DNA of 32,000 bases from Cereibacter sphaeroides 2.4.1 (GTDB lineage: Bacteria > Pseudomonadota > Alphaproteobacteria > Rhodobacterales > Rhodobacteraceae), in the NCBI RefSeq assembly GCF_000012905.2, contig NC_007494.2, forward strand, positions 540,001 through 572,000. The letters are read 5' to 3'. Below, piece by piece: positions 13,671 through 29,346 of the stretch. The position numbers and the translations under genes are program-made. Below the pieces are notes generated by a model, which was not told where the DNA came from, searched no databases, and worked only from the letters and a program-made list of their open reading frames with translations. The first letter of the stretch is position 1; every line of letters begins with the position of its first letter.

Positions 13671-14893
13671 GGCTCGTCATCGAACATGCGCCCTGCCCGC
13701 AGCGCGTGGGCGAGATGCGGCTCGAAGCGGGCGAACTCTCGATCGGGCGCGGTGCCGACTGCGACTGGCAGATCGACGACCCGGACATGTTCGTCTCGCG
13801 CAGGCACTGCATCGTCTCTGGCGGCGAGGGCGGCTGGCTGGTGATCGACGCAAGCCGGGGCGGGCTGTTCCTCGACGGGTCCGAGAGCCCGCTCGGCGCG
13901 GGAAATTCCGCGGTGCTGGCGCAGGGCACCCGGCTCCGGCTGGGCGATGTCGTGCTGCGCGCCGAGATCGAGGGGCGCGAGCCCCTGCGCGCGCCGCTCG
14001 CGCCGCGCGAGGCGGCGCTGGCGGTCGACGATTTCTTCGCGGCGCCCCGCGCGGTGACGCCCGAGCCTCCGCCGCGGCCGAAGGATCTGCCGGGACCGTT
14101 CGAGGCGGTGGAGCGGGCGCCCGCCCCGCCGCCGCAGGATGACTTCGGCTTCGGCTGGGCCCTGCCCGCGCAAGTTCGCCCGCCCCCCGCCGAGGCGCGC
14201 AAAACGGAGGGACAGGACCCGTTCTTCAGGCCGGGCACCGCGACGGAGAACCCTTCCCTGGAAGCATCCCCGGCCCCACCTCAGGCGAGGTCCGCGCCAA
14301 GGGAGCTCGCCTTGTCGGAGGACGCCCTGTCCGAGGCCTTCTTCCACGGCCTGGGCCTTCCGTCCGAAGCCCTCGACACGGCGGCGATGGAGGCGATGGG
14401 CCGCCGCTTCCGGCTGCTGGCCGAGGGGCTCGTCCTGCTGCTGCGCGCCCGCTCCCGCGAGAAGGGCGCCGCCCGCGTTCCGCAGAGCGTGATCGGGGCT
14501 TCGGAGGTGAACCCGCTGAAATTCCTCGTCACGCTCGACGAGGCAGTGGCCGCGCTGGTGACGCCGCGGGGGCCGGGATATCTCGGCCCCGAGGCTTCCA
14601 TCGAGGGCGCCTTCCGCGACCTCACCGACCATCAGCTGCGCAACTGGATCGCGGTGCAGGCCGCGCTGCGCCGGATGATCGACCGGTTCGATCCCGCGCG
14701 CTTCGAGGCCGAGAGCGAGCGCGAGGGCCGGATGGCGCAGCTCCTCGCCGGAGGCCGCAGCGCGCGGCTCTGGCAGCTGTATCTCGACCGTTACGAAGAG
14801 CTCGCCCGCGCGGCCGAGGACCGGTTCCTCGGCGAGGTCGGGGCCGATTTCAGGGAGGCCTACGAGGGCCCGGAGAGGAGAGAGAATGGCTGA
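13664..14893 (+). CDS. tagH: T6SS-associated FHA-domain protein TagH (Fha/ImpI)
   Basis: N-terminal FHA domain (LSIGRGADCDWQIDDPDMFVSRRHCIV...LRLGDVVLRAEI), a Pro-rich linker, and a TagH-type C-terminal domain. ATG overlaps the tssG stop by 7 nt. Confidence 0.9.
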   Translation: MLRLVIEHAPCPQRVGEMRLEAGELSIGRGADCDWQIDDPDMFVSRRHCIVSGGEGGWLVIDASRGGLFLDGSESPLGAGNSAVLAQGTRLRLGDVVLRAEIEGREPLRAPLAPREAALAVDDFFAAPRAVTPEPPPRPKDLPGPFEAVERAPAPPPQDDFGFGWALPAQVRPPPAEARKTEGQDPFFRPGTATENPSLEASPAPPQARSAPRELALSEDALSEAFFHGLGLPSEALDTAAMEAMGRRFRLLAEGLVLLLRARSREKGAARVPQSVIGASEVNPLKFLVTLDEAVAALVTPRGPGYLGPEASIEGAFRDLTDHQLRNWIAVQAALRRMIDRFDPARFEAESEREGRMAQLLAGGRSARLWQLYLDRYEELARAAEDRFLGEVGADFREAYEGPERRENG

Positions 14894-15338
14894 CAGACGC
14901 ATGTTCCTTGCGGGCGCGGGGGCGCTTTTGCTCGTGGCGGGCTGCGGGGGGCCCAAGGCCGGCACGCTCACCGTCAGCGCCACGGGCACGGCGGGCATGA
15001 ACCCCGGCCCCGACGGGAGCGACCGGCCGCTGACGGTCCAGATCCTGCAGCTGCGCGGCACCGCGGCCTTCGACGCGGCCGACGCCTTCGCGCTCCAGTC
15101 GCCGGCGGCAAGCCTCGGCGCGGACCTGCTCAAGGCGGATCTCGTGACGCTGATGCCGGGCGCGCCGGTCGTGCGGGCGATCCCGCTCGACCCGTCGGTG
15201 GCGGCCATCGGCGTGGTCGCGGGCTTCCGCAGCGCGGGCGGACGCAGCTACCGCTACAGCTTCAGCGTCGCGCCCACCGCCGAGGTGGCGCTGAAGATCG
15301 ACGTGGGCCAGGGGGGCCTCGTCGTGGTGCAGGGCTGA
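14886..15338 (+). CDS. tssJ: T6SS outer-membrane lipoprotein TssJ (SciN/VasD)
   Basis: Signal peptide with lipobox LVAGC (Cys20), then the TssJ-like pattern LTVSATGTAGMNPGPDGSDRPLTVQILQLR. Overlaps the tagH stop by 8 nt. Confidence 0.85.
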   Translation: MADRRMFLAGAGALLLVAGCGGPKAGTLTVSATGTAGMNPGPDGSDRPLTVQILQLRGTAAFDAADAFALQSPAASLGADLLKADLVTLMPGAPVVRAIPLDPSVAAIGVVAGFRSAGGRSYRYSFSVAPTAEVALKIDVGQGGLVVVQG

Positions 15339-16739: not shown

Positions 16740-18101
16740 ATGACGCGGGAGGACGATCCGTTCGGTCTGGCGACCGATGCCGCCCGCACCCGGATCAGGC
16801 CTTCTCCCGCCGAACGGGCGCGCCGGGCCGCGGCCGGGCCTGCTCCGGCCGAGGTGGGCGCTGTGGCCCCGGTCCGCCCGGCCCACGGAAGGACCCATGC
16901 CAATCCGCTTGTCGCGAGCTTCGCTCTCCTCCTCGAACTCGCGCCCGCGCTGGAAGGCACCGCCCCGCCGCAGGAGCCGGGGATGCTGCGTGCGCGGCTC
17001 CGCGACGGCCTGACCGAAGCCCGCGACCGGAGCGTGGCGCAGGGCGTGCCGCTGGCGCGCGCCGACCGCGCCGCCTGGTTCGTGGCGGCGCTCCTCGACG
17101 ATCTGGCCCTGAACACGCCCTGGGGTGCGGCCAGCGGATGGCCGCGCCAGCCGCTCGTGACCGAGCTGTCGGGCGAGGTCGATGCGGGCACCCGCTTCTT
17201 CGACCGGCTCGAAGAGCTCGCGCGCCATCCGACGCTCGACCCGCAGCTGCTGGAGCTGGCCTGGCTCTGCCTGTCGCTCGGCTTTCGCGGCAAGCACCGG
17301 ACGGGGCGGGAGGGCGGCGAGAGCGCGCTCTTCGCGCTCCGCACCGGCGTAGCGCGCCTTCTGCGCAATCCGGAGGCTGCGGCCGCGCCGCTCTCGCCGC
17401 ACTGGGAGGGGGTCGCCGCTCCCGACGCGCCGCGCCGCTTCGCGGTGCCGGTCTGGACGGTGGGCCTTGCGGCGCTTGCGCTGATGGCCGCCCTTTACAC
17501 GGGCCTCTCGCTGCAACTGTCGGCGCGGGCCGAGAAGCTCTTCGATCTGGCGGCCCTCGTGCCGCCGGCCGAGCGCGCGGCCCTGTTCCGCCCCCCGCGC
17601 GAAACGGTCGCGCCGCCCCCCGAAATCCGGGTAGAGCCGGTGGTGATCGAGCTCCTGCCCGCCTTCCGCGCCTGCGCCCCCGCCGCCACCGCGGCCGCCC
17701 TTCAGGGCCGCGAGGATGCGCAGCTCACCATCCTGACGCTTCAGGGCACCGACCCCGAGCTGTTCCGCTCGGCCCGCGCCGAGGTGAACGCGGATTATGC
17801 GCCGCTGGTGGCCTCGGTCGCGGCCGTCCTCGCGGAGAACCGCGAGCTGGTGGGGGCGGTCCGTGTGATCGGCCACACGGACAATGTGCCGGTCCAGCGC
17901 AGCAATCCCTTCGCCTCGAACCAGGGCCTGTCCGAGGCCCGCGCCGCCACCCTCGCGGCCCTCCTCGTCGAGGGCGGCGTGCCCGCGGGGATCGTCACCG
18001 CCGAGGGCCATGCCGACAGCGAGCCCGTCGCCGACAATGCCACGCGCGCGGGCCGGGCGCAGAACCGCCGCGTCGAGATCCGCATCGAGAAGAGGCTCTA
18101 A
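16740..18101 (+). CDS. tssL: T6SS inner-membrane protein TssL (DotU/ImpK) with a C-terminal OmpA/MotB peptidoglycan-binding domain
   Basis: MTREDDPFGL...RTRIRPSP start typical of TssL. DotU core (..LELAWLCLSLGFRGKHR), one TM helix (VWTVGLAALALMAALYTGL), and an OmpA-like end (VIGHTDNVP...NQGLSEARA...NRRVEIRI). An alternative ATG at 16701 would add 13 aa. Confidence 0.9.
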   Translation: MTREDDPFGLATDAARTRIRPSPAERARRAAAGPAPAEVGAVAPVRPAHGRTHANPLVASFALLLELAPALEGTAPPQEPGMLRARLRDGLTEARDRSVAQGVPLARADRAAWFVAALLDDLALNTPWGAASGWPRQPLVTELSGEVDAGTRFFDRLEELARHPTLDPQLLELAWLCLSLGFRGKHRTGREGGESALFALRTGVARLLRNPEAAAAPLSPHWEGVAAPDAPRRFAVPVWTVGLAALALMAALYTGLSLQLSARAEKLFDLAALVPPAERAALFRPPRETVAPPPEIRVEPVVIELLPAFRACAPAATAAALQGREDAQLTILTLQGTDPELFRSARAEVNADYAPLVASVAAVLAENRELVGAVRVIGHTDNVPVQRSNPFASNQGLSEARAATLAALLVEGGVPAGIVTAEGHADSEPVADNATRAGRAQNRRVEIRIEKRL

Positions 18102-21100
18102 TGCGCGCGCTCCGCCTCCTCCTCGCCGCCCTGACCTCGCGGACGCTCTGGACCTTCCTCGGGCTCGCGCTCCTCTGCGGGCTGGTCTGGCAGTTCGGCG
18201 CGCTGGTCTCGGTGGGCGAGACGGTGCCGCTCGCCTCCGACCTCGCGCGCGGGCTGGTCGTGGGCTGCATCGCGGTGGGCTGGCTTCTGTCGCTGCTGGC
18301 AGCCCAGCTGCGGGCGGCGCGCAGGAACCAGCTCTTCGTGACCGAGCTTGCGGCGCCCGCGCCCGCCGCCCCCGATCCCGGCGCGGCGGCCGTGGCCGAG
18401 GTCGGGGCGCGGTTCCGGCAGGTGATGGCCGAGATGAAACGCTCGCGCGTGGGCGGGCGGCGCTTTCTGCGCGACATGCCGTGGTATCTGCTGATCGGCC
18501 CGCCCGGCACCGGCAAGACCACGGCCCTGCGCCAGTCGGGGCTGCATTTCCCGATCGATCCCGGCGACGACCTGCAAGGCGTGGGCGGCACGCGGAACTG
18601 CGACTGGTTCTTCACCGAACAGGCCGTGCTGGTGGACACCGCCGGGCGCTACGTCCAGCAGCAGAGCGATCCCGAGGCCGATGCGGCGGAATGGTCGGGT
18701 TTTCTGGACCTTCTGAAGCGCCACCGCGGGCGGCGGGCGCTGAACGGCGTGATCGTGGCCCTGTCGATGACCGAGCTCCTTGGGCCCGAGCCTGCGCTGC
18801 GCGCTCATGGCCGCGAGATCCGCAAGCGGCTGAGCGAGCTCGGCCAGAGGCTCCAGATCCGCCTGCCGGTCTATCTGATGGTGACGAAGGCCGACCTCGT
18901 GCCGGGCTTCGAGACCTTCTTCGCGCCCCTGCCCGCGCGCGGGCGCGAGCAGGTCTGGGGGGCGACGCTCGCGCCCGACGAACGTCCCGAGGGCGGGGCG
19001 GTCGACCGCGAGGCCCGGGCGCTCTGGCAGGAACTCGAGGCCCGCGTCGGGCCGCGGCTGGCCGAGGAGGCCACGCTGGCCGACCGGGCCGAGATCTTCC
19101 GCTTCCCCGCGCGGATGGCCGAAGTCGAGGCGCCGCTGCGGGTGCTGATCGCCACCCTCTTCGGCGAGAGCCGCTACGAGGACAGCCCCTGGCTCCGCGG
19201 CTTCTACTTCACCTCGGCCACGCAGGAGGGCTCGCCCATCGACCGGATGCTCGGGGATCTGGCGGGCGCCTTCGGCCTCAGCGCGCCCGCGCCTCCCCGC
19301 CGGGCGCGGGGCGAGACACGCTCCTATTTCCTGCACGATCTTCTGGCGAAGGTGATCTTCCCGGAAGCCGGGCTCGGTCGCCTCGACCGGGCGGCGGAGG
19401 AGCGGCGCCGCTGGCTCTGGCGCGGCTCGGTGGCGGGCGCGGCGCTCGCCACGGCGGTGGCGGGGCTGGGGTTCCTTCTCTCGTTCCTCGGCTGGTCGGG
19501 CGCCATCGAGGATCAGGCGCGGCTGACCGCGGATCTCTCCGCCCGGCTGGCCAATGTGGCCGCGCGGCAGGCGCCGACCGAGCCGCTGGACCTTCCCCTC
19601 GCGCTGGAAGCCGCGACTGCCGCGGACGCCGCGCGCACGGAGCCGCCCTCGGGCCCCTTCGCCCTCATCGGCCCCTCGGCTGCGGCCGAGATCGAGCGGG
19701 CGGGCACCATCGCCTACGAGCGCACGCTGGCCAATGTGCTTGCGCCGCGGATGGTGGCGCTGCTCGAGGCCTCGATGTGGCGGCAGGTGCGCGATCCCGA
19801 CGACATGCTGGGCGCGCTCAAGGCCTATTTCATGCTCACCGGCCTCGCGCCCTACGACCGCGACTTCCTGACCGGCTGGCGGCAGGAGCAGCTGCCGCAG
19901 CAGGCGGTGCTCGACCCGTTCCCGACCGAGGCGGCCCGCTGGCACCAGCTGGCCGCGCTTTCCCTTTTCGGCACGCAGGGCGACCCCATCCCGCCCGACG
20001 AGGAGCTGGTGGCGGCGGCGCTGGCCAGCATCTGCACCATCCCCCTCGCGGCCCGCGCCTATGGCGCGCTGATGCAGGATCCCGCGGTCACGGGCCTGCC
20101 CGACTGGATCCCGGGCGACCGCGCCGGGCCGAACGGCGCGAGGATCTTCACCCGCCTCTCTGGCAAGACGCTGCGGGTGGGGCTGCCCGGCGCCTTCACC
20201 TTTGCGGGCTTTCACGAGACGATCCTGCCGCTCGTGCCCGAGGTGGCCGCGCAGGCCACGCTCGACCGGACCCTCTTTGCGGGCGGCTGCGGCGGCAGCG
20301 CCGGGGCCTCGGCCGCCACGCTCGAGGCGGACATCCTGAAGCTCTATTCCGACGATTTCATCGCGCGCTGGGATGGGCTTCTGCGCGACATCCGGCTGGC
20401 GCCGCTGACGGACTTCGCCACCGCCACTGCGGCGATGAAGGATCTGGCGAGCCCCGACAGTGCGCTGAAGCGGCTGCTCGCTGCGGTCGTGGCCGAGACC
20501 GACCTCACGCGCGTTCCCGCCCCAGATGCGGCGCCGCCCGAGGGTCTCCTCAAGGCCGCCGGCAAGAAGCTCGGGAAGGTGGGCAAGCTCGTGAAGGGGG
20601 CCGCGGCGCTGTCGGCGGGCTCCGCTCCGCCCACGGAGCCGCCGGGGCAGGCGGTGGCGCGCCATTTCGAGCCGCTGAAGGGGATGATCGCCGAGGTGGA
20701 GGGGGTGCCGCCGCGGATCGGGGATGCCGAACTCGCGCTCGGCGCGCTGGCCAATGCGCTTCAGACCGCGGCGGCCAATCCCGATCCGCAGGCGGCGCTG
20801 ACCGCGCAGGGGGGGCTTGCCACGCTGACCGGCGGGCTGACCGAGGTCGCCGCCCGCCTGCCGCCCCCCATCGGCGCCTGGCTCGAGGGGCTGGCCACGG
20901 ACACGGCCAGCGTGACGCGCGAGGCGGCGATCGCTCGGCTGAACGCGCGCTACCGGGCCGACATCCTGCCCTTCTGCCGCGCCGCCACCGCGGGCCGTTA
21001 TCCGTTCGAGCCGGGCTCGGCCATCGATGTGAACACAGCCGATTTCCAGCGCCTCTTCGGGCCCGGCGGCCTCTTCGACGGCTTCACGGGCGACGCGCTC

Positions 21101-21622
21101 GGGCCCTGGATCGATACGACGCGGCACCCTTGGGCCTGGCGCGCCGATCTGGGGCTCGATGCCCGGAGCCTCGCGCCCTTCGAGGCCGCCCGGCGGATGC
21201 GCGACGGTCTCTTCGCCGGAGGCATCGGCCCGGTGATGGGCTTCCTGCTTCAGGCGACGGACCTGTCGCCCAATGCCGCCCGGGTGACGCTGAGCCTCGA
21301 CGGCCAGCAGCTTGTCTACATGAATGCGGCCACGCCCCCCGTGGGCATGACCTGGCCCGGCCAGAACGGAACGAACCTCATCGTGCTCTCCTTCACGCCG
21401 CTCGACGGGTCGGCCGAGGCGGTGACCTCGGAATCCGGCGCCTGGGCCTGGCTCCGGCTGATCGGCAAGGGCAGCCTCGCGCCCACCGCGCAGCCCGACC
21501 TGTTCCGGCTGCGCCTTGCCGCCGGAGCCTATGCCGCGCGCTTCGATCTCCGGGCGAATTCGGTGGAGAACCCGCTCGACCTCAGGCTCTTCGGCGGGTT
21601 CCGCTGCCCGGATGGCTTCTGA
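18101..21622 (+). CDS. tssM: T6SS inner-membrane protein TssM (IcmF/ImpL), 1173 aa
   Basis: Two N-terminal TM helices, P-loop GPPGTGKT and VLVDTAGR, a third TM helix, then a large periplasmic IcmF-type domain. ATG 18101 shares one nucleotide with the tssL TAA. Confidence 0.95.
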   Translation: MRALRLLLAALTSRTLWTFLGLALLCGLVWQFGALVSVGETVPLASDLARGLVVGCIAVGWLLSLLAAQLRAARRNQLFVTELAAPAPAAPDPGAAAVAEVGARFRQVMAEMKRSRVGGRRFLRDMPWYLLIGPPGTGKTTALRQSGLHFPIDPGDDLQGVGGTRNCDWFFTEQAVLVDTAGRYVQQQSDPEADAAEWSGFLDLLKRHRGRRALNGVIVALSMTELLGPEPALRAHGREIRKRLSELGQRLQIRLPVYLMVTKADLVPGFETFFAPLPARGREQVWGATLAPDERPEGGAVDREARALWQELEARVGPRLAEEATLADRAEIFRFPARMAEVEAPLRVLIATLFGESRYEDSPWLRGFYFTSATQEGSPIDRMLGDLAGAFGLSAPAPPRRARGETRSYFLHDLLAKVIFPEAGLGRLDRAAEERRRWLWRGSVAGAALATAVAGLGFLLSFLGWSGAIEDQARLTADLSARLANVAARQAPTEPLDLPLALEAATAADAARTEPPSGPFALIGPSAAAEIERAGTIAYERTLANVLAPRMVALLEASMWRQVRDPDDMLGALKAYFMLTGLAPYDRDFLTGWRQEQLPQQAVLDPFPTEAARWHQLAALSLFGTQGDPIPPDEELVAAALASICTIPLAARAYGALMQDPAVTGLPDWIPGDRAGPNGARIFTRLSGKTLRVGLPGAFTFAGFHETILPLVPEVAAQATLDRTLFAGGCGGSAGASAATLEADILKLYSDDFIARWDGLLRDIRLAPLTDFATATAAMKDLASPDSALKRLLAAVVAETDLTRVPAPDAAPPEGLLKAAGKKLGKVGKLVKGAAALSAGSAPPTEPPGQAVARHFEPLKGMIAEVEGVPPRIGDAELALGALANALQTAAANPDPQAALTAQGGLATLTGGLTEVAARLPPPIGAWLEGLATDTASVTREAAIARLNARYRADILPFCRAATAGRYPFEPGSAIDVNTADFQRLFGPGGLFDGFTGDALGPWIDTTRHPWAWRADLGLDARSLAPFEAARRMRDGLFAGGIGPVMGFLLQATDLSPNAARVTLSLDGQQLVYMNAATPPVGMTWPGQNGTNLIVLSFTPLDGSAEAVTSESGAWAWLRLIGKGSLAPTAQPDLFRLRLAAGAYAARFDLRANSVENPLDLRLFGGFRCPDGF

Positions 21623-22112: not shown

Positions 22113-24416
22113 TCAGTTCAGGTTGATCTTCGAGCCCTTGCCGGTGATCTCGCCGCCGGCCTTGAGGTTGATCTTGCCCGAGGCGTCCAGCGTGATGTCC
22201 TTGCCCTTGAGGACGATGGTGCCGTCCTTCTTCAGCGTGATCTCGGCCGAGCCGCATTTCAGGGTGATCTCGTCCTTGACGTCGAGCGTGTAGCTCTTGC
22301 CCACGCCGATGCCCATGGCGCCGTCGGCCTTCTGCAGGTCGTCCTTGGCCACCTGCGTGGCGCGGGAGCCGCCGACGGTGGTCACCTGATCCGAGCCGGT
22401 GCTGACCGTCTGTTTCGCCCCCACCGTCACCGACTGGTCCGCGCCGACCGAGACGGTCTGCGACCCGCCCACGGTCCAGCCGTCGTCGGCGCCCACCGAA
22501 TGGGTCTGACCCGCGCCTACCGAGACGCTGCGGCTTGCGGCGATGGTGTTGGTCTGGACCGCGCCGACCGAGCGTGTCTCGGCCCCGCCGACACTGTCGG
22601 TGCGCGCCGCCCCGACCGTCACCGTCTGGGCGATGCCGACCGTCTGGGTGTGGTTCATGCCGATGGTCTCGGTCGCATTCCGCGCCACCGCGATCGTCTC
22701 GTCCGCGCCGACCCGCAGCGCGCGGTTCGCGCCCACGCTCTCGCTGTCGTCGACGCCGATCGAGACGGTGCGGTTCCGGCCCACGCTCGTGTCCTTGTCG
22801 TTGCCCACGCTCTCCCTGCGGTCGTGCGCCACGGACTGCACGGCGTCATGGCCCACATCCTCGGCGAAATCATGGCCGATGGTGCGGCTCTCGTCGTTCT
22901 TGATGAGCTCGGTATGGTCCTTCTGCGCCTGGAAATAGACCTCCTCCGCACCCGCCTTGTCCTCGAAGCGCAGCTCGTTCCAGCCGCCGCCTCCGGGCGA
23001 GGAGTGCGACTTCCAGCCCGACTGGGTGGCCTGGCCCGGCAGGCCGTAGGGCGGCATCTGCTCGGCATTGTAGACCCGGCCCGTGACGATGGGGCGGTCG
23101 GGATCGCCCTCGATGAAATCGACGATGACCTCCTGCCCGATCCGGGGGATCTGGATAAACCCCCAGCCGGCCCCGGCCCAGGTCTGGCTCACGCGGACGA
23201 AGCAGGAGGAGGCCTCGTTGCGGGCGTCGAGCCGGTCCCAGAAGAAATGCACCTTCACCCGCGCATATCTGTCGGTGAAGATCTCCGCGCCCGCGGGCCC
23301 GACCACGAGGGCGGTCTGCGGCCCCTTCATCACCGGGCGCGGGGTGCGCCGCTCGGGCCGGTAGGGGACGCGGGCGGGGACGAGCGACAGATCCACCTCG
23401 TAGCCCACCTCGGCGCGCGACTGACCCGAGCGGAACTGATCGTCCCAGAGCCGGTAGCGGCAGGCGGTGACGAGATAGTCGTCGTTCTCCGCCTCGCGCG
23501 GGAAGAGATCGAGCCGGAAGATCCGGCCCGGCCAGAGCGGCCGCGCGGTGCCGCGGGCCTCGATGCGCACCTGCGGCGCCTGCGCCTCCTCCAGCCGGAG
23601 CCGGGACAGCCGGTCGCCCGCGGGGAGGGTGCGGTAATCCCCGGGCCAGCGATAGTGCTCGGCACCGTCGGCCGCATGGCCGAGCGGATTTTCGGCGCGG
23701 CTCGTCAGGTCCGACGAGGGCTTCTCGAAATCGTAGTCGCCCTGCGAGACCTTTCCCGGCCGGATATGCGCCCGGGGCAGCCAGGCGGTGATGAAGTCGC
23801 CGTCGCGGAAGCTCACCCGGCTGTCGGGCTCGTAGGGCAGGATCTCGGCCCCCGGCGCGGGCGCGAGCCGGGCATTCGTGTCGAAGAGGACGAGCCTGTG
23901 GCCCTCTGCCTCATGCTCGAAGAAATAGCCGATCCCCTCATGCTCCATCAGCCGCTGCACGAAATCGAGATCGGTTTCGCCATACTGCACGCAGTAGTCG
24001 CGCGGCGGATAGCTGGCCTGCAGCCTGAAATCCCAGTCGAGGCCGGGGATCTCCCCCAGGACGGCCTCGAGGATCTCGGGCACCGAGCGGTCCTGGAAGA
24101 TCCGGTTGTCGCGCCGCAGGCCGAGGAGCGCCATGGAGGGCTCCATCGTCAGCCGGTAATGGGCATGGTCGTCGCGGATCTCGTCCAGCCCGAAGGCGGT
24201 GGCAATGCCGTGGAAATGGCGCGGCACCTCGCCCCGCACCGTCACCAGCACCGGCGTGCCGAGGATGTCGGCCGCGCCGAGATCGAGCGACTTGCTGGCG
24301 AGGAGCAGCTCGTAGCGGAACGGGCGCCCCAGCCCGTCCTCGCCCTCGAGCGCCGAGAACCACAGATCCTCGGTCGCGGCGGGAAGGGACAGGGTGATTT
24401 CGCGGGCCTCGGACAT
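22113..24416 (-). CDS. vgrG: T6SS spike protein VgrG (TssI), 767 aa, no obvious C-terminal effector extension
   Basis: gp27-like N-terminus (MSEAREITLSL..LEGEDGLGRPFRYELLL), gp5 OB-fold region, a long Val-Gly repeat beta-helix (about 22338-22850), and a C-terminal ..ITLKCGSAEITLKKDGTIVLKG..KINLN. ATG 24416 preceded by GAAGGGA. The upstream part of the 875-aa ORF is rejected. Confidence 0.95.
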   Translation of the reverse strand: MSEAREITLSLPAATEDLWFSALEGEDGLGRPFRYELLLASKSLDLGAADILGTPVLVTVRGEVPRHFHGIATAFGLDEIRDDHAHYRLTMEPSMALLGLRRDNRIFQDRSVPEILEAVLGEIPGLDWDFRLQASYPPRDYCVQYGETDLDFVQRLMEHEGIGYFFEHEAEGHRLVLFDTNARLAPAPGAEILPYEPDSRVSFRDGDFITAWLPRAHIRPGKVSQGDYDFEKPSSDLTSRAENPLGHAADGAEHYRWPGDYRTLPAGDRLSRLRLEEAQAPQVRIEARGTARPLWPGRIFRLDLFPREAENDDYLVTACRYRLWDDQFRSGQSRAEVGYEVDLSLVPARVPYRPERRTPRPVMKGPQTALVVGPAGAEIFTDRYARVKVHFFWDRLDARNEASSCFVRVSQTWAGAGWGFIQIPRIGQEVIVDFIEGDPDRPIVTGRVYNAEQMPPYGLPGQATQSGWKSHSSPGGGGWNELRFEDKAGAEEVYFQAQKDHTELIKNDESRTIGHDFAEDVGHDAVQSVAHDRRESVGNDKDTSVGRNRTVSIGVDDSESVGANRALRVGADETIAVARNATETIGMNHTQTVGIAQTVTVGAARTDSVGGAETRSVGAVQTNTIAASRSVSVGAGQTHSVGADDGWTVGGSQTVSVGADQSVTVGAKQTVSTGSDQVTTVGGSRATQVAKDDLQKADGAMGIGVGKSYTLDVKDEITLKCGSAEITLKKDGTIVLKGKDITLDASGKINLKAGGEITGKGSKINLN

Positions 24417-24432: not shown

Positions 24433-26841
24433 TCACAGGACCTGCGGACAGGCGAGCCCGCGCACGAGTCGTCGCACCGAGAGCGGGTTCGGCGCCGCGT
24501 CGAAGGCGGCTTCGAGAAAGAGCCGCGCACCGCCGGAGCGCAGGTCGATGAGGAACCGCAACCCGCCCTCGCGGGGCCGCAACCGGAAGGGCTCGAGGAG
24601 CCGGAGGAGGCCCCAGGGCCCCGGCGCCGCCAGCCGCGCCGCGCCCTCGGGCGTGCGGAAAGCGATCTCGGCGCCGCGGTCGGGCTGCAGGCCGGGCCAG
24701 TCGAGCCGCAGGCTGTCGCTCGTGGTGGTGACGGGGCCACCCTGCCCGCCCAGCATCACCGCGGCCGTGCCCCGCTCGGCCAGAGCGGTGAGCGTGAGCG
24801 TCCTCGGCCCGGTCAGGCCGGGACCTGCGGCGCTCGCCCGTTCGAGGAAGGCCGCGCTGTCGGGCGAAAGCCCGGCGAAGCGCGCCTCGGGCTTCCAGCG
24901 CCAGGGGCTGGCGCTCCGGTCGAGATAGGGCGCGGCGCGCGCCGCCACGAAGGCCGCGAGCGCCCCGTTCCGGCCCAGAAGCCGCTCCACCCCGGCGGGG
25001 TCGGCGTCGGCCCCCTCGGCGAACGGATAGCGCCCGTCGAGCGTCGCGCGACAGAGCGGCAGCACTTCGGCCTGCCACGCCGCCGTCAGCGGGTTCGTGA
25101 GACCCGCGGCCTGCGCCGAGCCCGCCTGCGCCAGCAGATCCTCGATGATCTCGACCACCAGCGCGGGCGCCTGCCGCAGCGTGGCGATGCTGCGCGCCCG
25201 GTCCTCGGCCTGCATCAGCCGCTGGAGACCCGTCGGACTGTCGCGGTCGAGGCCCCCCAGAGCCGCATTCAGCGCCGCAAAGAGCGCGGCGATCCGTGTC
25301 ATGCCGCCCTGATCCACGAACTGACGCGTCGGCCCGAAGACGGCCGCGATCTTCAGCTGCAGCGCATGGGGCCTCAGCGGATCCTCGCCGCCCACCTGAT
25401 GCCAGACCTCGCGCAGAAGCTGCGTGAGCGGCGACTCGGGTCGCGCCAGCGCGCCCGAGACCCGCACGGCCGTGTCGGCGGTCCGGAAGGGCACCACGCG
25501 CAGATCGGCGAGCAGGGCCTGCCACCGGGCGAGCGTCTCGGCCTGCAGAAGCTCCAGTACGCGGTCGGCGCTGGCGTTGCTCTCGGCGGTCGGCCGGTCG
25601 AGCAGCCGCGCCTCGCGCCGCGCCGCCTGCACCGCCAGCCCGGCGCCGCGGTCGCGGGCGTAGGTCCAGCCCGCCGCCGTGAAGAGGCCGGGGACCGGCG
25701 CGTCGAGCGCGGCCCCCGACCGACGGATCACCACGGCTGCGAGCCCCGGCACCGCCGCCTCCGCTTGCCACGGCGGAAGCGCCGCCGCGCCTTCCGAGCG
25801 CAGGAGTTCGAGCCAGGCGCGGTCGGCCTCGGACGCTTCGGCGGCAAAGGCGCGGGCCTGCGCCAGAAGATCGGCATCCGGCTGCGGCAGGGGTCCCTCG
25901 GGCGGCGCCAGCTGCCGCACATGCCGCGCGAGGCCCCGCATCTCCGCCGGAGCCGCGCGACGGTCGAGCCAGCCTGCCAGCCAGGCAGGCGACCAGTCAG
26001 CCGCGCCGCTCAGGATCGCCCAGGCCCGCACCGTGTCATAGCTCGCCGCCGGATCGGCCTCCGAGGCGATGGCCTCCTCGACGGCCTGCACCAGAACCGC
26101 CGGCAGCGCGGCTTGCACTTCCGCGCGGTAGGCTGCCTCGGCACCGGCCGCCGCGTCGAAGCCGAGAGGCCCCGCGGCCAGCGCGACCGGCGCCTGCTGC
26201 ACCTCGGTCGCGACACCGGACGCCGCATCCGCGAGCGTGTCGAGCCGCGCGCGGAGCGGCAGGGCCGCCGCCTCCGCAGCACGGGCCTCGAAGGCCTCGG
26301 CCAGCCTGTGATGGAAGCTCCATTCGACATGCAGCGCCCAGCCCGCCACCGCGAACCCGAAGGAGGCGGCCAGAACCGCCGCGATCCCGCGCCAGCTTTC
26401 CACGGCGGTCGGCTGGAGGCGTGTCCGCCGGGCCTCCAGCCGGTCAAGGCAGGCCTGCAGGAACGGCTGCACCGGCGCGAAGGCGGGCCCGGCCTCGGCG
26501 GCGCTGCGGAGGAAGCGGCGCAGGTCCGGCTCGCCCAGAGCGCGACCGTCGAAGAGCTGCGCCCGCGCGGCCGCTTCCCACAGACGCAGGTCGAGGCTCG
26601 GGTTCGCGCGCGCCTGCCGGTCGATCACCAGCGCCAGCGCATAGCGCGCGGGCGGCACCGCGGCCGCGGGAACCTCACCTGCAAGCGCGCGCCCGAACCG
26701 GTCGAGATGCGCCCGGGCCTCGGCCGCCAGCGCTGCGGGAGGATCACGCCTCCGGCCCAGCTCCTCGGCGAAGGCCAGCGCGGGGGCCGCGGCGCGGGCG
26801 AACGGATCGGAGGCGGGGCCTCGGGCGAGATCCTGCGGCAT
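24433..26841 (-). CDS. DotU(TssL)-like N-terminal domain, single TM helix and TssM/IcmF-like periplasmic domain; no NTPase domain (802 aa)
   Basis: The C-terminal ~630 aa are colinear with the periplasmic part of the TssM in this window (for example LPLCRATLDGRYPFAEGADADPAGVERLLG vs LPFCRAATAGRYPFEPGSAIDVNTADFQRLFG). The N-terminus shows a weak DotU-like pattern. TM helix WRGIAAVLAASFGFAVAGWALHV. ATG 26841 shares one nucleotide with the upstream stop. Confidence 0.85.
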   Translation of the reverse strand: MPQDLARGPASDPFARAAAPALAFAEELGRRRDPPAALAAEARAHLDRFGRALAGEVPAAAVPPARYALALVIDRQARANPSLDLRLWEAAARAQLFDGRALGEPDLRRFLRSAAEAGPAFAPVQPFLQACLDRLEARRTRLQPTAVESWRGIAAVLAASFGFAVAGWALHVEWSFHHRLAEAFEARAAEAAALPLRARLDTLADAASGVATEVQQAPVALAAGPLGFDAAAGAEAAYRAEVQAALPAVLVQAVEEAIASEADPAASYDTVRAWAILSGAADWSPAWLAGWLDRRAAPAEMRGLARHVRQLAPPEGPLPQPDADLLAQARAFAAEASEADRAWLELLRSEGAAALPPWQAEAAVPGLAAVVIRRSGAALDAPVPGLFTAAGWTYARDRGAGLAVQAARREARLLDRPTAESNASADRVLELLQAETLARWQALLADLRVVPFRTADTAVRVSGALARPESPLTQLLREVWHQVGGEDPLRPHALQLKIAAVFGPTRQFVDQGGMTRIAALFAALNAALGGLDRDSPTGLQRLMQAEDRARSIATLRQAPALVVEIIEDLLAQAGSAQAAGLTNPLTAAWQAEVLPLCRATLDGRYPFAEGADADPAGVERLLGRNGALAAFVAARAAPYLDRSASPWRWKPEARFAGLSPDSAAFLERASAAGPGLTGPRTLTLTALAERGTAAVMLGGQGGPVTTTSDSLRLDWPGLQPDRGAEIAFRTPEGAARLAAPGPWGLLRLLEPFRLRPREGGLRFLIDLRSGGARLFLEAAFDAAPNPLSVRRLVRGLACPQVL

Positions 26842-27689
26842 CAGATCCGCCCCTCCGCACGCCAGCGGCGCAGCGTCTCTTCGCCGACCTCGAAATGCAT
26901 CGAGTCCTCGCGGTTATAGGCCGCGCCCCAATACCAGCCCTCATCGTTGAAATATTCGGCGAGGTAGAGAAGCCCCGCCTGCGTGCCGCCATCGGCGAAC
27001 GGATCGAGCACGCCTTCGAGCGTCAGGTCGATGGCCGTGCCCCAGGAATGGTTCGAGATCGAGCTCGTGGATCCCCGGACGAACCGCGCACAGAGGGCGC
27101 CGGCGGTGCCGACCTTGGCATGGATGTCGGGATCGGACTGCCTGAGCCGCTCGAGCACCCGGGCCAGACTGTCGAGCGCGGGGCGGATCATGCTGACCGT
27201 GATCGGCCCGACGGTGCGTGTCTCGAGAAGCGCCTTCAGACGCGGCGCGGTGACCGGCTGGCAGGCGGTGCTATAGCTCTCGCGCGGGGGGCCGAGCAGT
27301 TCGAGCATCACGCGGTTCTTCGGCTGGGTGACGCCCTTGTTGAAGCGCGCGCGGGCCAGCTTGACCTCTTCCGTCAGCGCCTCGGAGGGCGGCTCATCGA
27401 AGGCCTCGCCGGCGAAGGGATCGGCGGCCACGACGGGCTCGCTCCGGTTCGCGACGAGGCTCAGGCTGTCGCGCAGCTGCGCCACCTCGGCGGTCAGGGC
27501 GGCGATCCGCCCGTCGAGCGCCCCCCGCGCCGCATCCGCCTCCGTCAGGGCCGCCTCGAGCCGCTTCAGGCGCAGTTCGGTCGCGCCATCGGCCGTGCGC
27601 AGAAGGCTCGTCACCACCGCGAAGGCCATCGCCGCCACCACGAGGCCGATGGCGACGATCAGGGGCCCGGCGAGGCTGCCGCGCTGCAT
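26841..27689 (-). CDS. Membrane-anchored LAS-family (peptidase M15, VanY-like) metallopeptidase with a coiled-coil linker; TagX-like candidate
   Basis: N-terminal TM helix (GPLIVAIGLVVAAMAFAVVTSLL), a heptad-like Ala/Leu/Glu-rich stretch, an exact SxHxxGxAxD motif (SNHSWGTAID, 27027-27056) and a C-terminal DSMHFE (His265, 26895-26897). Confidence 0.8.
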   Translation of the reverse strand: MQRGSLAGPLIVAIGLVVAAMAFAVVTSLLRTADGATELRLKRLEAALTEADAARGALDGRIAALTAEVAQLRDSLSLVANRSEPVVAADPFAGEAFDEPPSEALTEEVKLARARFNKGVTQPKNRVMLELLGPPRESYSTACQPVTAPRLKALLETRTVGPITVSMIRPALDSLARVLERLRQSDPDIHAKVGTAGALCARFVRGSTSSISNHSWGTAIDLTLEGVLDPFADGGTQAGLLYLAEYFNDEGWYWGAAYNREDSMHFEVGEETLRRWRAEGRI

Positions 27690-27692
27690 GGC

Positions 27693-28439
27693 TCAGCCCT
27701 CCGCCACGTCAACCACCACCACCGAGACATTGTCGGGCCCGCCCGCATCGAGCGCCGCGCGGACGAGCGCGAGGCAGGACTCGTAAGGCCCCACCGCCGA
27801 CGCCAAATGCCCCTCAAGGACGGGATCGGCCACGCAATGGGTGAGCCCGTCCGAGCAGAGCAGAAGCCGGTCGCCGGCTGCGATCTCCAGCGCGACCGTC
27901 TCGACCTCGACCGTATCGGAGGCCCCCACCGCTCGGGTGACGAGGTTCGCCTCGGGATGGAGGGCGGCAGCGGCCGGATCGAGGTGGCCTGCGTCCACAA
28001 GCGCCTGCACGACGCTGTGATCGCGGGTGAGCGCGCTCAGGCGGCCCGCGCGCAACAGATAGGCCCGGCTGTCGCCCACCCAGGCGACATGGGCCGTGGT
28101 GCGGGCGATGAGCAGGGCCACGACCGTAGCCCCCATCTGCCCGACCTCTGCCTTCCGCGCGTGCGCGCGGATGGCGGCATTGGCAGCCTCGAGCCCCGCC
28201 ACCAGCATCCGCCGGGGCTCGCCGCCCTCGGGGATCGTCTCGAGATGGTCGATCACGATATCGGCCGCCACATCGCCCTGCCCGTGGCCGCCCATCCCGT
28301 CCGCCACGGCCCAGAGCTGGCCCGCGGGGTCGGTCAGGATCGCATCCTCGTTCCGCGCGCGCCGGTGGCCGCGGTGGGTGATGCCCCAGCCCTCGACCCG
28401 CAGCCCGGCACGGGGCACGACCGTCGTCGGCGCCTTCAT
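27693..28439 (-). CDS. pppA: PP2C-family Ser/Thr phosphatase (T6SS PppA-like)
   Basis: RNEDA..AVADGMGGH..GATVVAL..WVGDSRAYL..LLLCSDGLT..GGPDNVSVVVVDV are the PP2C motifs. ATG 28439 (MKAPTTVV) preceded by GAGGG. The longer ORF to 28742 would overlap the divergent gene. Confidence 0.9.
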   Translation of the reverse strand: MKAPTTVVPRAGLRVEGWGITHRGHRRARNEDAILTDPAGQLWAVADGMGGHGQGDVAADIVIDHLETIPEGGEPRRMLVAGLEAANAAIRAHARKAEVGQMGATVVALLIARTTAHVAWVGDSRAYLLRAGRLSALTRDHSVVQALVDAGHLDPAAAALHPEANLVTRAVGASDTVEVETVALEIAAGDRLLLCSDGLTHCVADPVLEGHLASAVGPYESCLALVRAALDAGGPDNVSVVVVDVAEG

Positions 28440-28581: not shown

Positions 28582-29346
28582 ATGGCCCGCCGAGCGACCC
28601 TGACGCGCCGGATCTGCGCGCTTCTTCTGGCGAGCCTCGCCGCTGCCCCGACCGGGGCCGGCGCAGAGGGCCTGACCGATGCGGAGCTTCTCGGGCTTTT
28701 CCACCGGCAGCGCGACGCCTTCGCGGCGGCCCGGAGCGGCAATGGTCAGGCGCGCGGGCTGAAGCTCGTGACGGTGGACCGGATCGGGCCGGCGCCCGCC
28801 ATGGCCGATGTGCCGGACAGCCTCGGGGCGCCCGCGGGGGAGGATCCCGGCCTTCGGCCGACGGCCTCGACCGACAGCGCGCCGGGCGAGACCGGGCGGC
28901 CGGTCCTCGGCCTGCCGCAGGGGGCCGACCGGCTGGCCGCCGCGGATCCGCCGCCCGAGGGGCGTGAGACGGCGGAAGTCTCTCCTGAGAGCTTCGGCCT
29001 TCTCGATCCGGCGCTGCAGGTCAATGTGCGCATCCATTTCGCCTTCGACTCGGCGGTGCTGGCCGCGGATCAGACGCCGCTTCTCGCGCAGCTCTGCACG
29101 GTGATGAAGGCGAGCGACATCCGCCTGTTTCAGATCGTGGGCCACACCGATGCGGCGGGCAGCGAGGCCTACAACCAGCAGCTCTCGCTCCTGCGGGCCG
29201 AGGAGGTGCGCCGCTACCTGACCGGCCCCTGCGGCATCGCGCCGGAACGGCTGCGCGCCGTGGGGATGGGCGAGCGGTTCCTGGCCGACAAGAAGGACCC
29301 CCGCAGCGGCGAGAACCGGCGGGTCGAGTTTCAGGCGCTGAGCTAG
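28582..29346 (+). CDS. Secreted OmpA-family peptidoglycan-binding protein
   Basis: ATG 28582 with GGAGG 6 nt upstream (the ORF-track start at 28546 is a GTG). Signal peptide ..LLLASLAAAPTGAGA/EG. C-terminal OmpA-like domain (IHFAFDSAVL..IVGHTDAAGSEAYNQQLSLLRAEEV..NRRVEF). Confidence 0.85.
   Translation: MARRATLTRRICALLLASLAAAPTGAGAEGLTDAELLGLFHRQRDAFAAARSGNGQARGLKLVTVDRIGPAPAMADVPDSLGAPAGEDPGLRPTASTDSAPGETGRPVLGLPQGADRLAAADPPPEGRETAEVSPESFGLLDPALQVNVRIHFAFDSAVLAADQTPLLAQLCTVMKASDIRLFQIVGHTDAAGSEAYNQQLSLLRAEEVRRYLTGPCGIAPERLRAVGMGERFLADKKDPRSGENRRVEFQALS

What the first reader, a model, noticed from the sequence alone, without database searches (positions are those of the whole stretch)
24433..26841. 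Chimeric TssL(DotU)-like / TssM-periplasmic paralogue without an NTPase, encoded directly upstream of vgrG
The cluster already has a canonical TssJ, TssL and TssM. This 802-aa protein is an additional membrane-complex-like component. Residues ~1-140 follow the hydrophobic and charge pattern of the DotU domain of the TssL in this window: PPARYALALVIDRQARANPSLDLRLWEAAA vs DRAAWFVAALLDDLALNTPWGAASGWPRQPL, and PFLQACLDRLEARR vs LELAWLCLSLGFRGKHR. A single TM helix follows (about 26329-26394). The remaining ~630 aa are colinear with the periplasmic region of TssM (18101-21622): YRAEVQAALPAVLVQAVEEAI..YDTVRAWAILSG vs YERTLANVLAPRMVALLEASM..LGALKAYFMLTG; AWQAEVLPLCRATLDGRYPFAEGADADPAGVERLLGRNGALAAF vs RYRADILPFCRAATAGRYPFEPGSAIDVNTADFQRLFGPGGLFDGF; SPWRWK vs HPWAWR. 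There is no P-loop and no TM1-TM2 hairpin. I do not recall a named Tag family with this single-pass DotU + IcmF-periplasmic architecture. It could form or modify a second trans-envelope channel, cap or compete with TssJLM, or couple VgrG loading to the membrane complex.
Basis: partly seen in the sequence, partly recalled or inferred. Interest (0 to 1): 0.8.

Follow-up and report, generated by a model that had tools for sequence, protein, structure and literature searches.

The report
TagM-type TssL/TssM hybrid T6SS accessory protein
The gene is real and encodes a membrane protein joining a TssL-like (DotU) cytoplasmic domain to a TssM-like periplasmic domain, but this architecture was already described from sequence and named TagM in Sinorhizobium fredii in 2025, and its function is still untested.

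Summary
Window 24433-26841 (-) encodes an 802-aa protein with one TM helix (res 152-172) and no Walker A motif. Residues about 200-800 are a full TssM-type periplasmic region (Pfam IcmF-related E=7e-48, IcmF_C 5e-9; Foldseek hits to TssM in 6ixh/6hs7/4y7m).

The N-terminal DotU assignment does not hold by pairwise comparison with the window's own TssL. It does hold at family level: Pfam DotU hits 30 of 35 homologues, nine of ten scanned individually score at or above the gathering cutoff, and the only good structural match of the N-terminal model is a TssL cytoplasmic domain (6y4r, TM about 0.6, rmsd 2.7 Å).

The family is discrete (about 25 clusters at 50% identity). It occurs in Paracoccaceae and on Rhizobium/Sinorhizobium plasmids, always inside one T6SS cluster type.

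The invariant neighbour is not vgrG. It is an M15 (TagX-like) peptidoglycan peptidase immediately upstream (gap -4 to +5 nt in 63 of 78 loci), within an ompA | pppA-M15-hybrid module.

The architecture is not unnamed. Sinorhizobium fredii USDA257 "TagM" (821 aa; DotU + TM + IcmF domains) was described in silico in 2025, with no experiments. The most likely role is an accessory membrane-complex subunit working with the cell-wall peptidase. Interest is moderate.

The parts
24433..26841 (-). TagM-type hybrid gene (802 aa): DotU-like domain + 1 TM + TssM-type periplasmic region
   Evidence: ORF; identical public gene call; Pfam; family; AF2 model pLDDT 90.4
26422..26808 (-). Cytoplasmic six-helix DotU-like domain (res 12-140)
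   Evidence: Helices 13-140 in the model. Pfam DotU hits 30/35 family members, best E=2.7e-8. Ten members scanned individually score 26-34 bits against a gathering cutoff of 27, matching profile positions 2-81 and 2-121 in the R. etli member. The top PDB profile hit is 6y4r TssL, E=0.023. Foldseek to 6y4r_A gives TM 0.58/0.63, rmsd 2.7 Å.
26326..26388 (-). Single transmembrane helix (res 152-172), part of a long helix spanning res 150-191
   Evidence: Hydropathy scan; model secondary structure
25393..26247 (-). IcmF-related (PF06761) helical periplasmic domain, res 199-483
   Evidence: Pfam E=6.8e-48; TIGR03348 partial match to model positions 441-793; hhalign to the TssM family
24889..25092 (-). 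IcmF_helical-like segment, res 584-651, containing invariant Cys597
   Evidence: Pfam E=0.019 in the query, hit in 29/35 family members; BLASTP block to TssM; invariant columns
24502..24804 (-). C-terminal beta domain (res 680-780; IcmF_C PF06744 matches res 708-778)
   Evidence: Pfam E=5e-9; PDB profile hits 4y7l/4y7m at E about 1e-10; Foldseek TMt about 0.70 to the EAEC TssM C-terminal domain
26841..27689 (-). TagX-like membrane-anchored M15 peptidoglycan peptidase (282 aa). Its stop overlaps the hybrid's start. Called 'TagY' in S. fredii USDA257.
   Evidence: Pfam Peptidase_M15_4 PF13539 E=1.4e-12; N-terminal TM res 3-34; TagX is defined by PF13539 plus N-terminal TM segments (PMC5061870); immediately upstream of the hybrid in 78 loci, with the gap between -4 and +5 nt in 63 of them
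27693..28439 (-). PppA/TagG PP2C phosphatase, first gene of the pppA-M15-hybrid(-vgrG) operon
   Evidence: Pfam PP2C; public gene call of 248 aa; conserved synteny
28582..29346 (+). TagN-like periplasmic OmpA-domain protein, transcribed divergently from pppA
   Evidence: Pfam OmpA E=3e-17; public gene call; present in most loci; described as TagN in USDA257
22113..24416 (-). VgrG (767 aa), downstream in the window and in Paracoccaceae but not in Rhizobiaceae
   Evidence: Pfam Phage_GPD, Gp5; public gene call; synteny
16740..18101 (+). Canonical 'evolved' TssL (DotU + OmpA domains) with an N-terminal DDPFGL..RTRIRP motif
   Evidence: Pfam DotU E=8e-50, OmpA; motif present in 61/63 co-resident TssL
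18101..21622 (+). Canonical TssM (1173 aa; three TM helices, Walker A, IcmF-related_N, IcmF-related, IcmF_C)
   Evidence: Pfam; TM and Walker A scan
14886..15338 (+). TssJ lipoprotein
   Evidence: Pfam T6SS-SciN E=6e-22

Best explanation
The gene encodes a member of the TagM family, the name given in Sinorhizobium fredii USDA257. NCBI's genome annotation pipeline (PGAP) names these proteins 'ImcF-related family protein'. It is a bitopic inner-membrane accessory protein of one T6SS cluster type. Shown here: about 130 N-terminal residues form a DotU/TssL-like helical domain in the cytoplasm. One TM helix follows. The remaining roughly 630 residues reproduce the whole periplasmic part of TssM (helical pillar region plus the C-terminal beta domain). 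The NTPase, the TM1-TM2 hairpin, the OmpA domain of TssL and, in the window protein and most of the 80 genome members, TssL's N-terminal phospho-site motif are all absent. Inferred: it is a structural accessory subunit of the TssJLM membrane complex. The topology of both halves matches their parents, so the periplasmic half could pack against TssM/TssJ pillars and the DotU half could pack against TssL or the TssK baseplate. It would act together with the tightly coupled TagX-like M15 peptidase and the TagN-like OmpA protein, opening the peptidoglycan locally and then anchoring the complex. A plausible origin is fusion of a duplicated tssL-tssM pair by deletion from just after the TssL TM helix to TssM TM3.
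For: Architecture. The family is discrete, with a score gap of 520 bits or more against 280 bits or less for true TssM. The other short TssM-like hits that were scanned are mostly N-terminally cut TssM. Purifying selection: median identity to the window protein is 51% across 80 loci, similar to TssJ, PppA and TagF. All 80 genome loci lie in the same T6SS cluster, which also has canonical TssJ, TssL and TssM. The M15 gene lies immediately upstream in 78 loci, with the gap between -4 and +5 nt in 63 of them. The ompA | pppA-M15-hybrid module stays intact even where the cluster is rearranged and vgrG is elsewhere. In Acinetobacter, TagX is an inner-membrane PG endopeptidase needed for T6SS biogenesis, and its reported partners include TssL and TssM (PMC5061870; PMC13584744). 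The two invariant Cys residues (C597, C798) align with Cys residues in TssM. The USDA257 authors reached the same in-silico expectation.
Against: There is no experimental datum for any family member. No interaction or complex prediction could be run here. The DotU domain is shorter than in TssL (about 130 against about 170 residues), and Pfam matches only profile positions 2-81 (2-121 in R. etli). The query itself has no DotU hit, and Foldseek E-values for the N-terminal domain are not significant; only TM-score and rmsd single out TssL. The periplasmic half is about as distant from the co-resident TssM (about 165 bits) as from unrelated TssM (up to 205 bits), so a recent in-cluster duplication is not supported. 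Sharing an operon with the negative regulator PppA would also fit a regulatory role.
Confidence: 0.55

Rival explanations
1. It is a decoy or brake. Because it lacks the NTPase, it could compete with TssM for TssJ and with TssL for the baseplate, damping assembly. It would then be part of a negative module with PppA, which is encoded in the same operon.
For: It carries the interaction-type domains of both TssM and TssL but no NTPase and, in the window protein and most members, no TssL-type phospho-site motif. It is co-transcribed with pppA.
Against: The same operon also holds the M15 peptidase and, in Paracoccaceae, vgrG, both of which are positive components. The family is conserved at the level of core parts. 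No T6SS decoy of this kind is known, and the 2026 review of T6SS accessory genes lists none.
Confidence: 0.15
2. It is a positioning or nucleation factor. By analogy with Legionella DotU/IcmF, which target and stabilise the Dot/Icm machine, the hybrid would mark the envelope site, perhaps where the M15 peptidase has opened the wall, at which TssJLM then assembles.
For: The DotU and IcmF domains sit in one chain. It is tightly coupled to the peptidase. A paper on DotU/IcmF and polar targeting of the T4BSS was seen by title and abstract only (bioRxiv 10.1101/315721). In Acinetobacter, TagX partners act in T6SS localisation.
Against: The argument is purely analogical. It overlaps heavily with the best explanation and differs only in timing and stoichiometry.
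Confidence: 0.15
3. One reading: it forms a second, NTPase-independent trans-envelope channel, or it couples VgrG loading to the membrane complex.
For: It has a complete TssM-type periplasmic region, including the conserved C-terminal tail. vgrG is adjacent in the window and in Paracoccaceae loci.
Against: vgrG adjacency is lost in Rhizobium and Sinorhizobium clusters. No second TssJ gene was seen in the cluster. No feature links it to VgrG other than gene order.
Confidence: 0.1
4. It is a decaying remnant of a duplicated tssL-tssM pair and has no function.
For: Domains have been lost relative to both parent proteins.
Against: The full-length ORF is conserved across two bacterial orders in 144 or more species genomes and 38 plasmid records. 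There are about 60 invariant positions and a confident fold, pLDDT 90.
Confidence: 0.03

Closest known systems
TagM of Sinorhizobium fredii USDA257 (Microb Biotechnol 2025, PMC11872809)
   Same: The described architecture is the same (N-terminal cytosolic DotU domain, one TM, IcmF structural domains, 821 aa) and so is the neighbourhood (TagN OmpA protein, PppA, M15 peptidase 'TagY'). A Sinorhizobium americanum orthologue is 40% identical to the window protein over res 31-802. An 821-aa S. fredii member is 88% identical to that orthologue.
   Different: The window protein comes from a Rhodobacter-like Paracoccaceae organism, where the gene is followed by vgrG. Its own DotU signal is below Pfam detection. 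I could not match the USDA257 accession directly because the paper's Table S5 is not held. That paper offers only in-silico description.
TssM (IcmF family; TIGR03348)
   Same: The whole periplasmic region is homologous and colinear with TssM res 503-1172. The fold matches TssM in the cryo-EM membrane core complexes and the TssM C-terminal crystal structures. The conserved Cys pair is shared.
   Different: It has no TM1-TM2 hairpin, no cytoplasmic IcmF-related_N/NTPase domain and no Walker A motif. It scores 211 bits against the 388-bit TIGR03348 cutoff.
TssL (DotU family)
   Same: An N-terminal cytoplasmic helical domain with the DotU fold is followed directly by one TM helix. The conserved PARYALA-L-D motif corresponds to AKYAFCALIDE in the solved A. 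baumannii TssL, 6y4r.
   Different: The domain is shorter. The DDPFGL..RTRIRP N-terminal motif is absent, and there is no OmpA peptidoglycan-binding domain. A 630-aa TssM-like periplasmic region follows the TM helix in place of a short tail or an OmpA domain.
TagX and its partners in Acinetobacter (TsmK, TslA)
   Same: This is a functional analogy only. In both systems a T6SS-encoded membrane-anchored PF13539 peptidase works with accessory envelope proteins that contact TssL and TssM.
   Different: No homology was tested or claimed between the hybrid and TsmK or TslA. The Acinetobacter proteins have been studied experimentally, and this one has not.
TagL / TagP / TagN (peptidoglycan-anchoring accessory proteins)
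   Same: All are accessory envelope proteins that supplement the membrane complex.
   Different: Those proteins are defined by an OmpA/MotB peptidoglycan-binding domain, which the hybrid lacks.

Membership tests
TagM sensu S. fredii USDA257 (DotU + TM + IcmF accessory protein) | N-terminal cytosolic DotU-type domain | tested here: met
   The query has no direct Pfam hit. However, 30/35 family members hit DotU, nine of ten scanned individually score at or above the 27-bit gathering cutoff, and the R. etli member scores 30.8 bits over profile positions 2-121. The N-terminal model superposes on TssL 6y4r with TM about 0.6 and rmsd 2.7 Å.
TagM sensu S. fredii USDA257 (DotU + TM + IcmF accessory protein) | Single TM helix and no signal peptide | tested here: met
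   One hydrophobic segment at res 152-172; one long helix at res 150-191 in the model.
TagM sensu S. fredii USDA257 (DotU + TM + IcmF accessory protein) | Two IcmF structural (periplasmic) domains | tested here: met
   PF06761 E=6.8e-48 and PF06744 E=5e-9.
TagM sensu S. fredii USDA257 (DotU + TM + IcmF accessory protein) | Sequence homology to the Sinorhizobium protein and the same gene neighbourhood | tested here: met
   40% identity, E=8e-165, to the S. americanum orthologue. An 821-aa S. fredii member exists. The OmpA | PP2C-M15-hybrid module is shared. The USDA257 accession itself was not checked.
TssM / IcmF (TIGR03348) | Three TM helices with an N-terminal hairpin | tested here: not met
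   One TM segment, against three in the window's TssM.
TssM / IcmF (TIGR03348) | Cytoplasmic IcmF-related_N / NTPase domain with Walker A | tested here: not met
   No PF14331 hit and no G-x4-GK[ST] motif.
TssM / IcmF (TIGR03348) | Periplasmic IcmF-related and IcmF_C domains | tested here: met
TssM / IcmF (TIGR03348) | Score at or above the curated equivalog cutoff | tested here: not met
   211.4 bits against a cutoff of 388.15.
TssL / DotU | DotU domain followed by a C-terminal TM anchor, with at most a short tail or an OmpA domain in the periplasm | tested here: not met
   A DotU-like domain and a TM helix are present, but about 630 residues of TssM-type periplasmic domain follow.
TagL/TagN/TagP peptidoglycan-anchoring accessory proteins | OmpA/MotB peptidoglycan-binding domain (PF00691) | tested here: not met
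   No OmpA hit in the query or in 35 family members.
Type IVB IcmF (NF038226) | Score at or above the equivalog cutoff | tested here: not met
   13.8 bits against a cutoff of 1000.
Functional T6SS membrane-complex component | Physical association with TssJ/TssL/TssM and a requirement for secretion | not testable with these tools
   This needs genetics, pull-downs, or multimer modelling, which was not available.

The most novel reading that the evidence does not exclude
TagM is a stoichiometric, NTPase-free protomer of a hetero-oligomeric membrane complex. For example, it could supply one class of periplasmic pillar and cytoplasmic DotU hook while canonical TssM/TssL supply the other. It would also be the docking site that brings the M15 peptidase to the assembly point. 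This T6SS clade would then have a membrane complex with a different composition, and possibly a different symmetry, from the EAEC TssJLM paradigm.
Probability: 0.2. Interest if true: 0.7.

Novelty: new member of a known kind. Interest (0 to 1): 0.4.

Why it matters
The T6SS membrane complex is usually treated as a fixed TssJ-TssL-TssM assembly. Here a conserved extra subunit is built from halves of TssL and TssM. It is always paired with a cell-wall peptidase, and it is spread over Paracoccaceae and rhizobial plasmids. That pattern suggests one whole T6SS clade assembles or anchors its envelope complex differently.

The family has a name, but no experiment has been done on it. This analysis adds several things that make it directly testable:
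- the family's boundaries and taxonomic distribution;
- its true conserved partner, the M15 peptidase rather than VgrG;
- a confident structural model;
- the list of features it has lost: the NTPase, the OmpA domain and (in the window protein and most members) the TssL-type phospho-site motif.

The organisms concerned are genetically tractable (S. fredii, Cereibacter sphaeroides, Paracoccus).

Tried and rejected
- Pairwise BLASTP of the hybrid against the window's TssL found nothing.
- hhalign of the N-terminal family profile against the co-resident TssL family gave E=0.025, the same as the control against TssM (0.028).
- Foldseek E-values for the N-terminal model are not significant (best 2.0). 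Only TM-score and rmsd single out TssL.
- A homologue search with the N-terminal profile returned only four fragments.
- Recent duplication of the co-resident TssM was tested. Co-resident TssM scores about 165 bits, and an unrelated marine TssM scores 205 bits, so this is not supported.
- Eight other short TssM-like proteins from the exhaustive search were scanned. Seven start inside IcmF-related_N and so are N-terminally cut TssM. One (P0262) has no N-terminal domain hit. None has a DotU hit, so none is a second DotU-IcmF family.
- A TssL-type phospho-site motif in the hybrid was looked for. It is absent from the window protein. A strict motif is found in 6 of 80 members, and related variants occur in a few more (SPRTVLPP, Tabrizicola-like genomes).
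- R. etli Mim1 literature: the studied Mim1 T6SS is assigned to group 5 and its described gene modules do not include this gene. The hybrid lies in a cluster on a different plasmid of the related strain IE4771.
- Literature searches for 'TssM-like', 'ImcF-related', and 'DotU IcmF fused', plus the 2026 review of T6SS accessory genes (TAGs) and Boyer 2009, found no description of the hybrid. The S. fredii USDA257 paper was then found.
- The supplement of that paper (Table S5) is not held, so the accession could not be matched.
Full report
**1. What is in the window**

The minus-strand ORF 24433-26841 (ATG start, 802 aa) is present as described. The identical protein is called on a 319-kb ENA metagenome contig and on many other contigs.

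It sits in a complete T6SS cluster:
- clpV (-), then ppkA, tssA, tssB, tssC, hcp, tssE, tssF, tssG, fha, tssJ, tssK
- tssL (DotU + OmpA domains)
- tssM (IcmF-related_N + IcmF-related + IcmF_C)
- tagF, all on the + strand

A convergent minus-strand operon follows: pppA (27693-28439), an M15 peptidase gene (26841-27689), the gene in question, and vgrG (22113-24416). An OmpA-domain gene (28582-29346, +) is transcribed divergently from pppA. The cluster therefore already has canonical TssJ, TssL and TssM, and this protein is additional to them.

**2. The C-terminal 600 residues are a TssM periplasmic region**

- Pfam gives IcmF-related at res 199-483 (E=6.8e-48), IcmF_C at res 708-778 (E=5e-9) and a weak IcmF_helical hit at res 584-651.
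- The TssM equivalog TIGR03348 matches only model positions 441-793 and scores 211 bits against a cutoff of 388.
- A family profile aligns to the co-resident TssM family at E=5e-38 over 579 columns, about res 205-801 against TssM 503-1172.
- An AlphaFold2 model built from 81 family sequences is confident (mean pLDDT 90.4, pTM 0.70).
- Its best PDB matches are TssM chains of the cryo-EM membrane core complexes (6ixh, 6hs7; E from 1e-12 to 2e-8) and the EAEC TssM C-terminal domain crystals (TMt about 0.70).
- Hydropathy finds one TM segment (res 152-172) and no Walker A motif. The window's TssM has three TM helices and GPPGTGKT.

**3. The N-terminal domain is DotU-like, on weaker and indirect evidence**

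Several direct tests fail:
- The query has no Pfam DotU hit.
- BLASTP against the window's TssL finds nothing.
- Profile-profile comparison with the co-resident TssL family gives E=0.025, no better than the control against TssM at 0.028.

Family-level tests support the call:
- 30 of 35 homologues hit Pfam DotU at E<=0.1, best 2.7e-8.
- Ten members scanned individually score 26-34 bits against a gathering cutoff of 27, always from the start of the domain to DotU profile position about 80.
- The R. etli member reaches position 121 at 30.8 bits.
- Rhizobiaceae members carry precomputed DotU hits, and some are even named 'DotU family' by NCBI.
- A profile of res 1-174 searched against PDB sequences has a TssL cytoplasmic domain as its top hit (6y4r, E=0.023). 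It aligns LDRF..PARYALALLlDq with LNRFE..AKYAFCALIDE.
- A separate N-terminal model (pLDDT 91.4) has only one good superposition in the PDB: 6y4r_A, with TM 0.58/0.63 and rmsd 2.7 Å over 131 columns. Every other listed match has TM of 0.35 or less and rmsd of 7.8 Å or more.
- The full-length model also finds 6y4r with probability 0.99.

I take the DotU homology as likely (about 85-90%). The domain is shortened: six helices and about 130 residues.

**4. The family**

About 100 clusters at 90% identity, all 790-850 aa, surround the query. An exhaustive profile search of 1.8 billion representatives finds about 25 full-length clusters at 50% identity scoring 520 bits or more. There is then a gap down to canonical 1170-1200-aa TssM at 280 bits or less. 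I scanned eight of the shorter TssM-like hits. Seven start inside IcmF-related_N and so are cut TssM, one has no N-terminal domain hit, and none has a DotU hit. I saw no second DotU-IcmF family.

A scan of one genome per species finds relatives in 144 species. The best 80 are Paracoccaceae plus Rhizobium etli. The genera named in the record titles include Rhodobacter, Tabrizicola, Rhodovulum, Paracoccus, Sulfitobacter, Ruegeria, Shimia and Salipiger.

The plasmid collection adds 38 records: 28 Rhizobium, 4 Sinorhizobium and 3 Paracoccus, plus one each from Rhodobacter, Sulfitobacter and Pseudosulfitobacter. They are named 'ImcF-related family protein' by NCBI's annotation pipeline, PGAP.

Median identity to the window protein is 51%. 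That is similar to TssJ, PppA and TagF and lower than TssM (62%) or TssK (70%). There are about 60 invariant positions. It is a constrained, functional gene.

**5. Context: the constant partner is the peptidase, not VgrG**

In the 80 genome loci, the order is OmpA(-) | PppA, M15, hybrid, VgrG (+) | TagF, TssM, TssL, TssK, TssJ, Fha (-). This order recurs almost without exception.

The gap between the M15 stop and the hybrid start lies between -4 and +5 nt in 63 of 78 loci. It is a 1-nt overlap in the window. The hybrid-to-vgrG gap is usually about 60-175 nt by my approximate start calls.

On R. etli and S. americanum plasmids the cluster is rearranged: ppkA <- | -> tssH | <- ompA | -> PP2C, M15, hybrid. 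There the hybrid is the last T6SS gene and is followed by unrelated genes. The inherited unit is therefore ompA | pppA-M15-hybrid.

The M15 protein has an N-terminal TM helix and a PF13539 domain. By eye it also has intact SNHSWGTAIDL and DSMHFE metal and catalytic motifs. This is the architecture that defines TagX, the inner-membrane L,D-endopeptidase required for Acinetobacter T6SS biogenesis (PMC5061870). The reported partners of TagX include TssL and TssM (PMC13584744).

**6. What the hybrid lacks relative to its parent proteins**

- Compared with TssM, it lacks the TM1-TM2 hairpin and the NTPase/IcmF-related_N domain.
- Compared with TssL, it lacks the OmpA domain.
- It also lacks the N-terminal DDPFGLxNDAGRTRIRP motif. 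That motif is present in 61 of 63 co-resident TssL. In Agrobacterium TssL, Thr14 in the N-terminal cytoplasmic region is the PpkA-dependent phospho-site that Fha binds (PMC3953482). The correspondence between the two motifs is my inference from position and sequence.
- The window protein has no such motif. Only a handful of members have a related SPRTVLPP motif: 6 of 80 match the strict pattern.
- Two invariant cysteines (C597, C798) align with cysteines in TssM. This suggests a periplasmic disulfide like the DsbA-dependent one reported for Serratia TssM (review PMC13584744).

**7. Comparison with what is known**

The 2026 review of T6SS accessory genes (TAGs) lists no DotU-IcmF hybrid. However, the 2025 paper on the Sinorhizobium fredii USDA257 T6SS ('Rhizobiales Group 3') describes exactly this protein and names it TagM. 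It is given as 821 aa, with a cytosolic N-terminal DotU domain, a single TM helix and two structural IcmF domains. It is described as homologous to both TssL and TssM. It lies beside TagN (248 aa, signal peptide + OmpA) and an M15 peptidase that the authors call TagY and compare with TagX. [quoted passage not shown]

Only that paper and its preprint contain TagM, DotU and T6SS together. No tagM mutant is mentioned in the passages I read.

The S. americanum orthologue is 40% identical to the window protein over res 31-802, E=8e-165. An 821-aa S. fredii member is 88% identical to that orthologue. I could not match the USDA257 accession itself.

There are name collisions. In the review, 'TagM1' is a Burkholderia lipoprotein and 'TagY' is BCAL0353.

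**8. Mechanism**

Shown: the topology and the domain content.

Inferred: both halves keep the orientation of their parents, with DotU in the cytoplasm before an in-to-out TM helix and the TssM pillar and beta domain in the periplasm. The protein could therefore plug into the TssJLM assembly on both sides of the membrane. Its tight gene coupling to a TagX-like peptidase and a TagN-like OmpA protein points to local opening of the sacculus and to anchoring or stabilising the complex.

A tssL-tssM fusion origin is plausible, because the two genes abut at 18101. It is not recent: co-resident TssM is no closer than unrelated TssM.

**9. Verdict**

The claim that the architecture is unnamed is wrong: it was named TagM in 2025, on in-silico evidence only. 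vgrG linkage is lineage-specific. The protein is a new (Paracoccaceae) member of a described but experimentally uncharacterised accessory family. Interest is moderate.

Noticed in passing
window 26841-27689 (-): A 282-aa protein with an N-terminal TM helix, a probable coiled coil (about res 38-80) and a PF13539 M15 domain with intact SNHSWGTAIDL / DSMHFE motifs. This is the TagX-like architecture. Its stop overlaps the hybrid's start, and it lies immediately upstream of the hybrid in 78 loci.
   Followed up: partly
window 16752-16802 (+), N-terminus of TssL: TssL carries DDPFGLATDAARTRIRP. The motif DDPFGLxNDAGRTRIRP is present in 61/63 co-resident TssL and looks like the Agrobacterium TssL Thr14 phospho-site region. 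With ppkA, pppA, fha and tagF in the cluster, this suggests an Agrobacterium-type phospho-TssL/Fha switch. The hybrid lacks the motif.
   Followed up: partly
window 28582-29346 (+): A periplasmic OmpA-domain protein (TagN-like) is transcribed divergently from pppA. It is conserved in position in Paracoccaceae and on Rhizobium and Sinorhizobium plasmids.
   Followed up: partly
L082 7993-13603: The full-length TssM closest to the hybrid's periplasmic part (P0101, TARA marine scaffold) is preceded by a second TssM-like gene of 671 aa that has IcmF-related_N and IcmF-related but no IcmF_C. This is the opposite kind of TssM paralogue: the NTPase is kept and the C-terminus is lost.
   Followed up: no
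window 24448-24450 and 25051-25053 (Cys798, Cys597 of the hybrid): Two invariant cysteines in the periplasmic part align with cysteines in the window's TssM (LPFCRA..., ...FRCPDG). They probably form a conserved disulfide. The distance in the model could not be measured here.
   Followed up: no
L005, L006, L009, L013, L046, L071 (N-termini of hybrid orthologues): Six of 80 genome members, from Tabrizicola-like genomes, have an N-terminal extension matching the strict motif SPRTVLPP, and a few others have close variants. It faintly resembles the TssL RTRIRP site, so a phospho-regulated subset is possible. The motif is absent from the window protein.
   Followed up: no
window 115-1098 (-) and 29343-30320 (-): Two ORFs (327 aa downstream of clpV; 325 aa beyond the OmpA gene) have no significant Pfam hit. 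The second is 81% identical in Rhodobacter sp. NSM (L001). Their functions are unknown.
   Followed up: no
L081 1619-4534 (source contig, outside the window): A 971-aa caspase-like Peptidase_C14 protein with TPR/Sel1 repeats lies a few kb beyond the T6SS cluster on the source contig.
   Followed up: no
literature (PMC11872809 vs PMC13584744): Nomenclature collisions exist. 'TagM' means the DotU-IcmF hybrid in S. fredii but a Burkholderia lipoprotein (TagM1) in the 2026 review. 'TagY' means the M15 peptidase in S. fredii but BCAL0353 in Burkholderia. The S. fredii TagY has the TagX architecture (PF13539).
   Followed up: yes
L083 / L084 (R. etli IE4771 pRetIE4771d; S. americanum CCGM7 plasmid A): This T6SS cluster type is carried on large plasmids and chromids in rhizobia; 17 of 38 records are predicted conjugative. 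In R. etli IE4771 it lies on plasmid pRetIE4771d. The T6SS studied in the related strain Mim1 is assigned to group 5, and its genes carry plasmid-f (PF) locus tags.
   Followed up: partly
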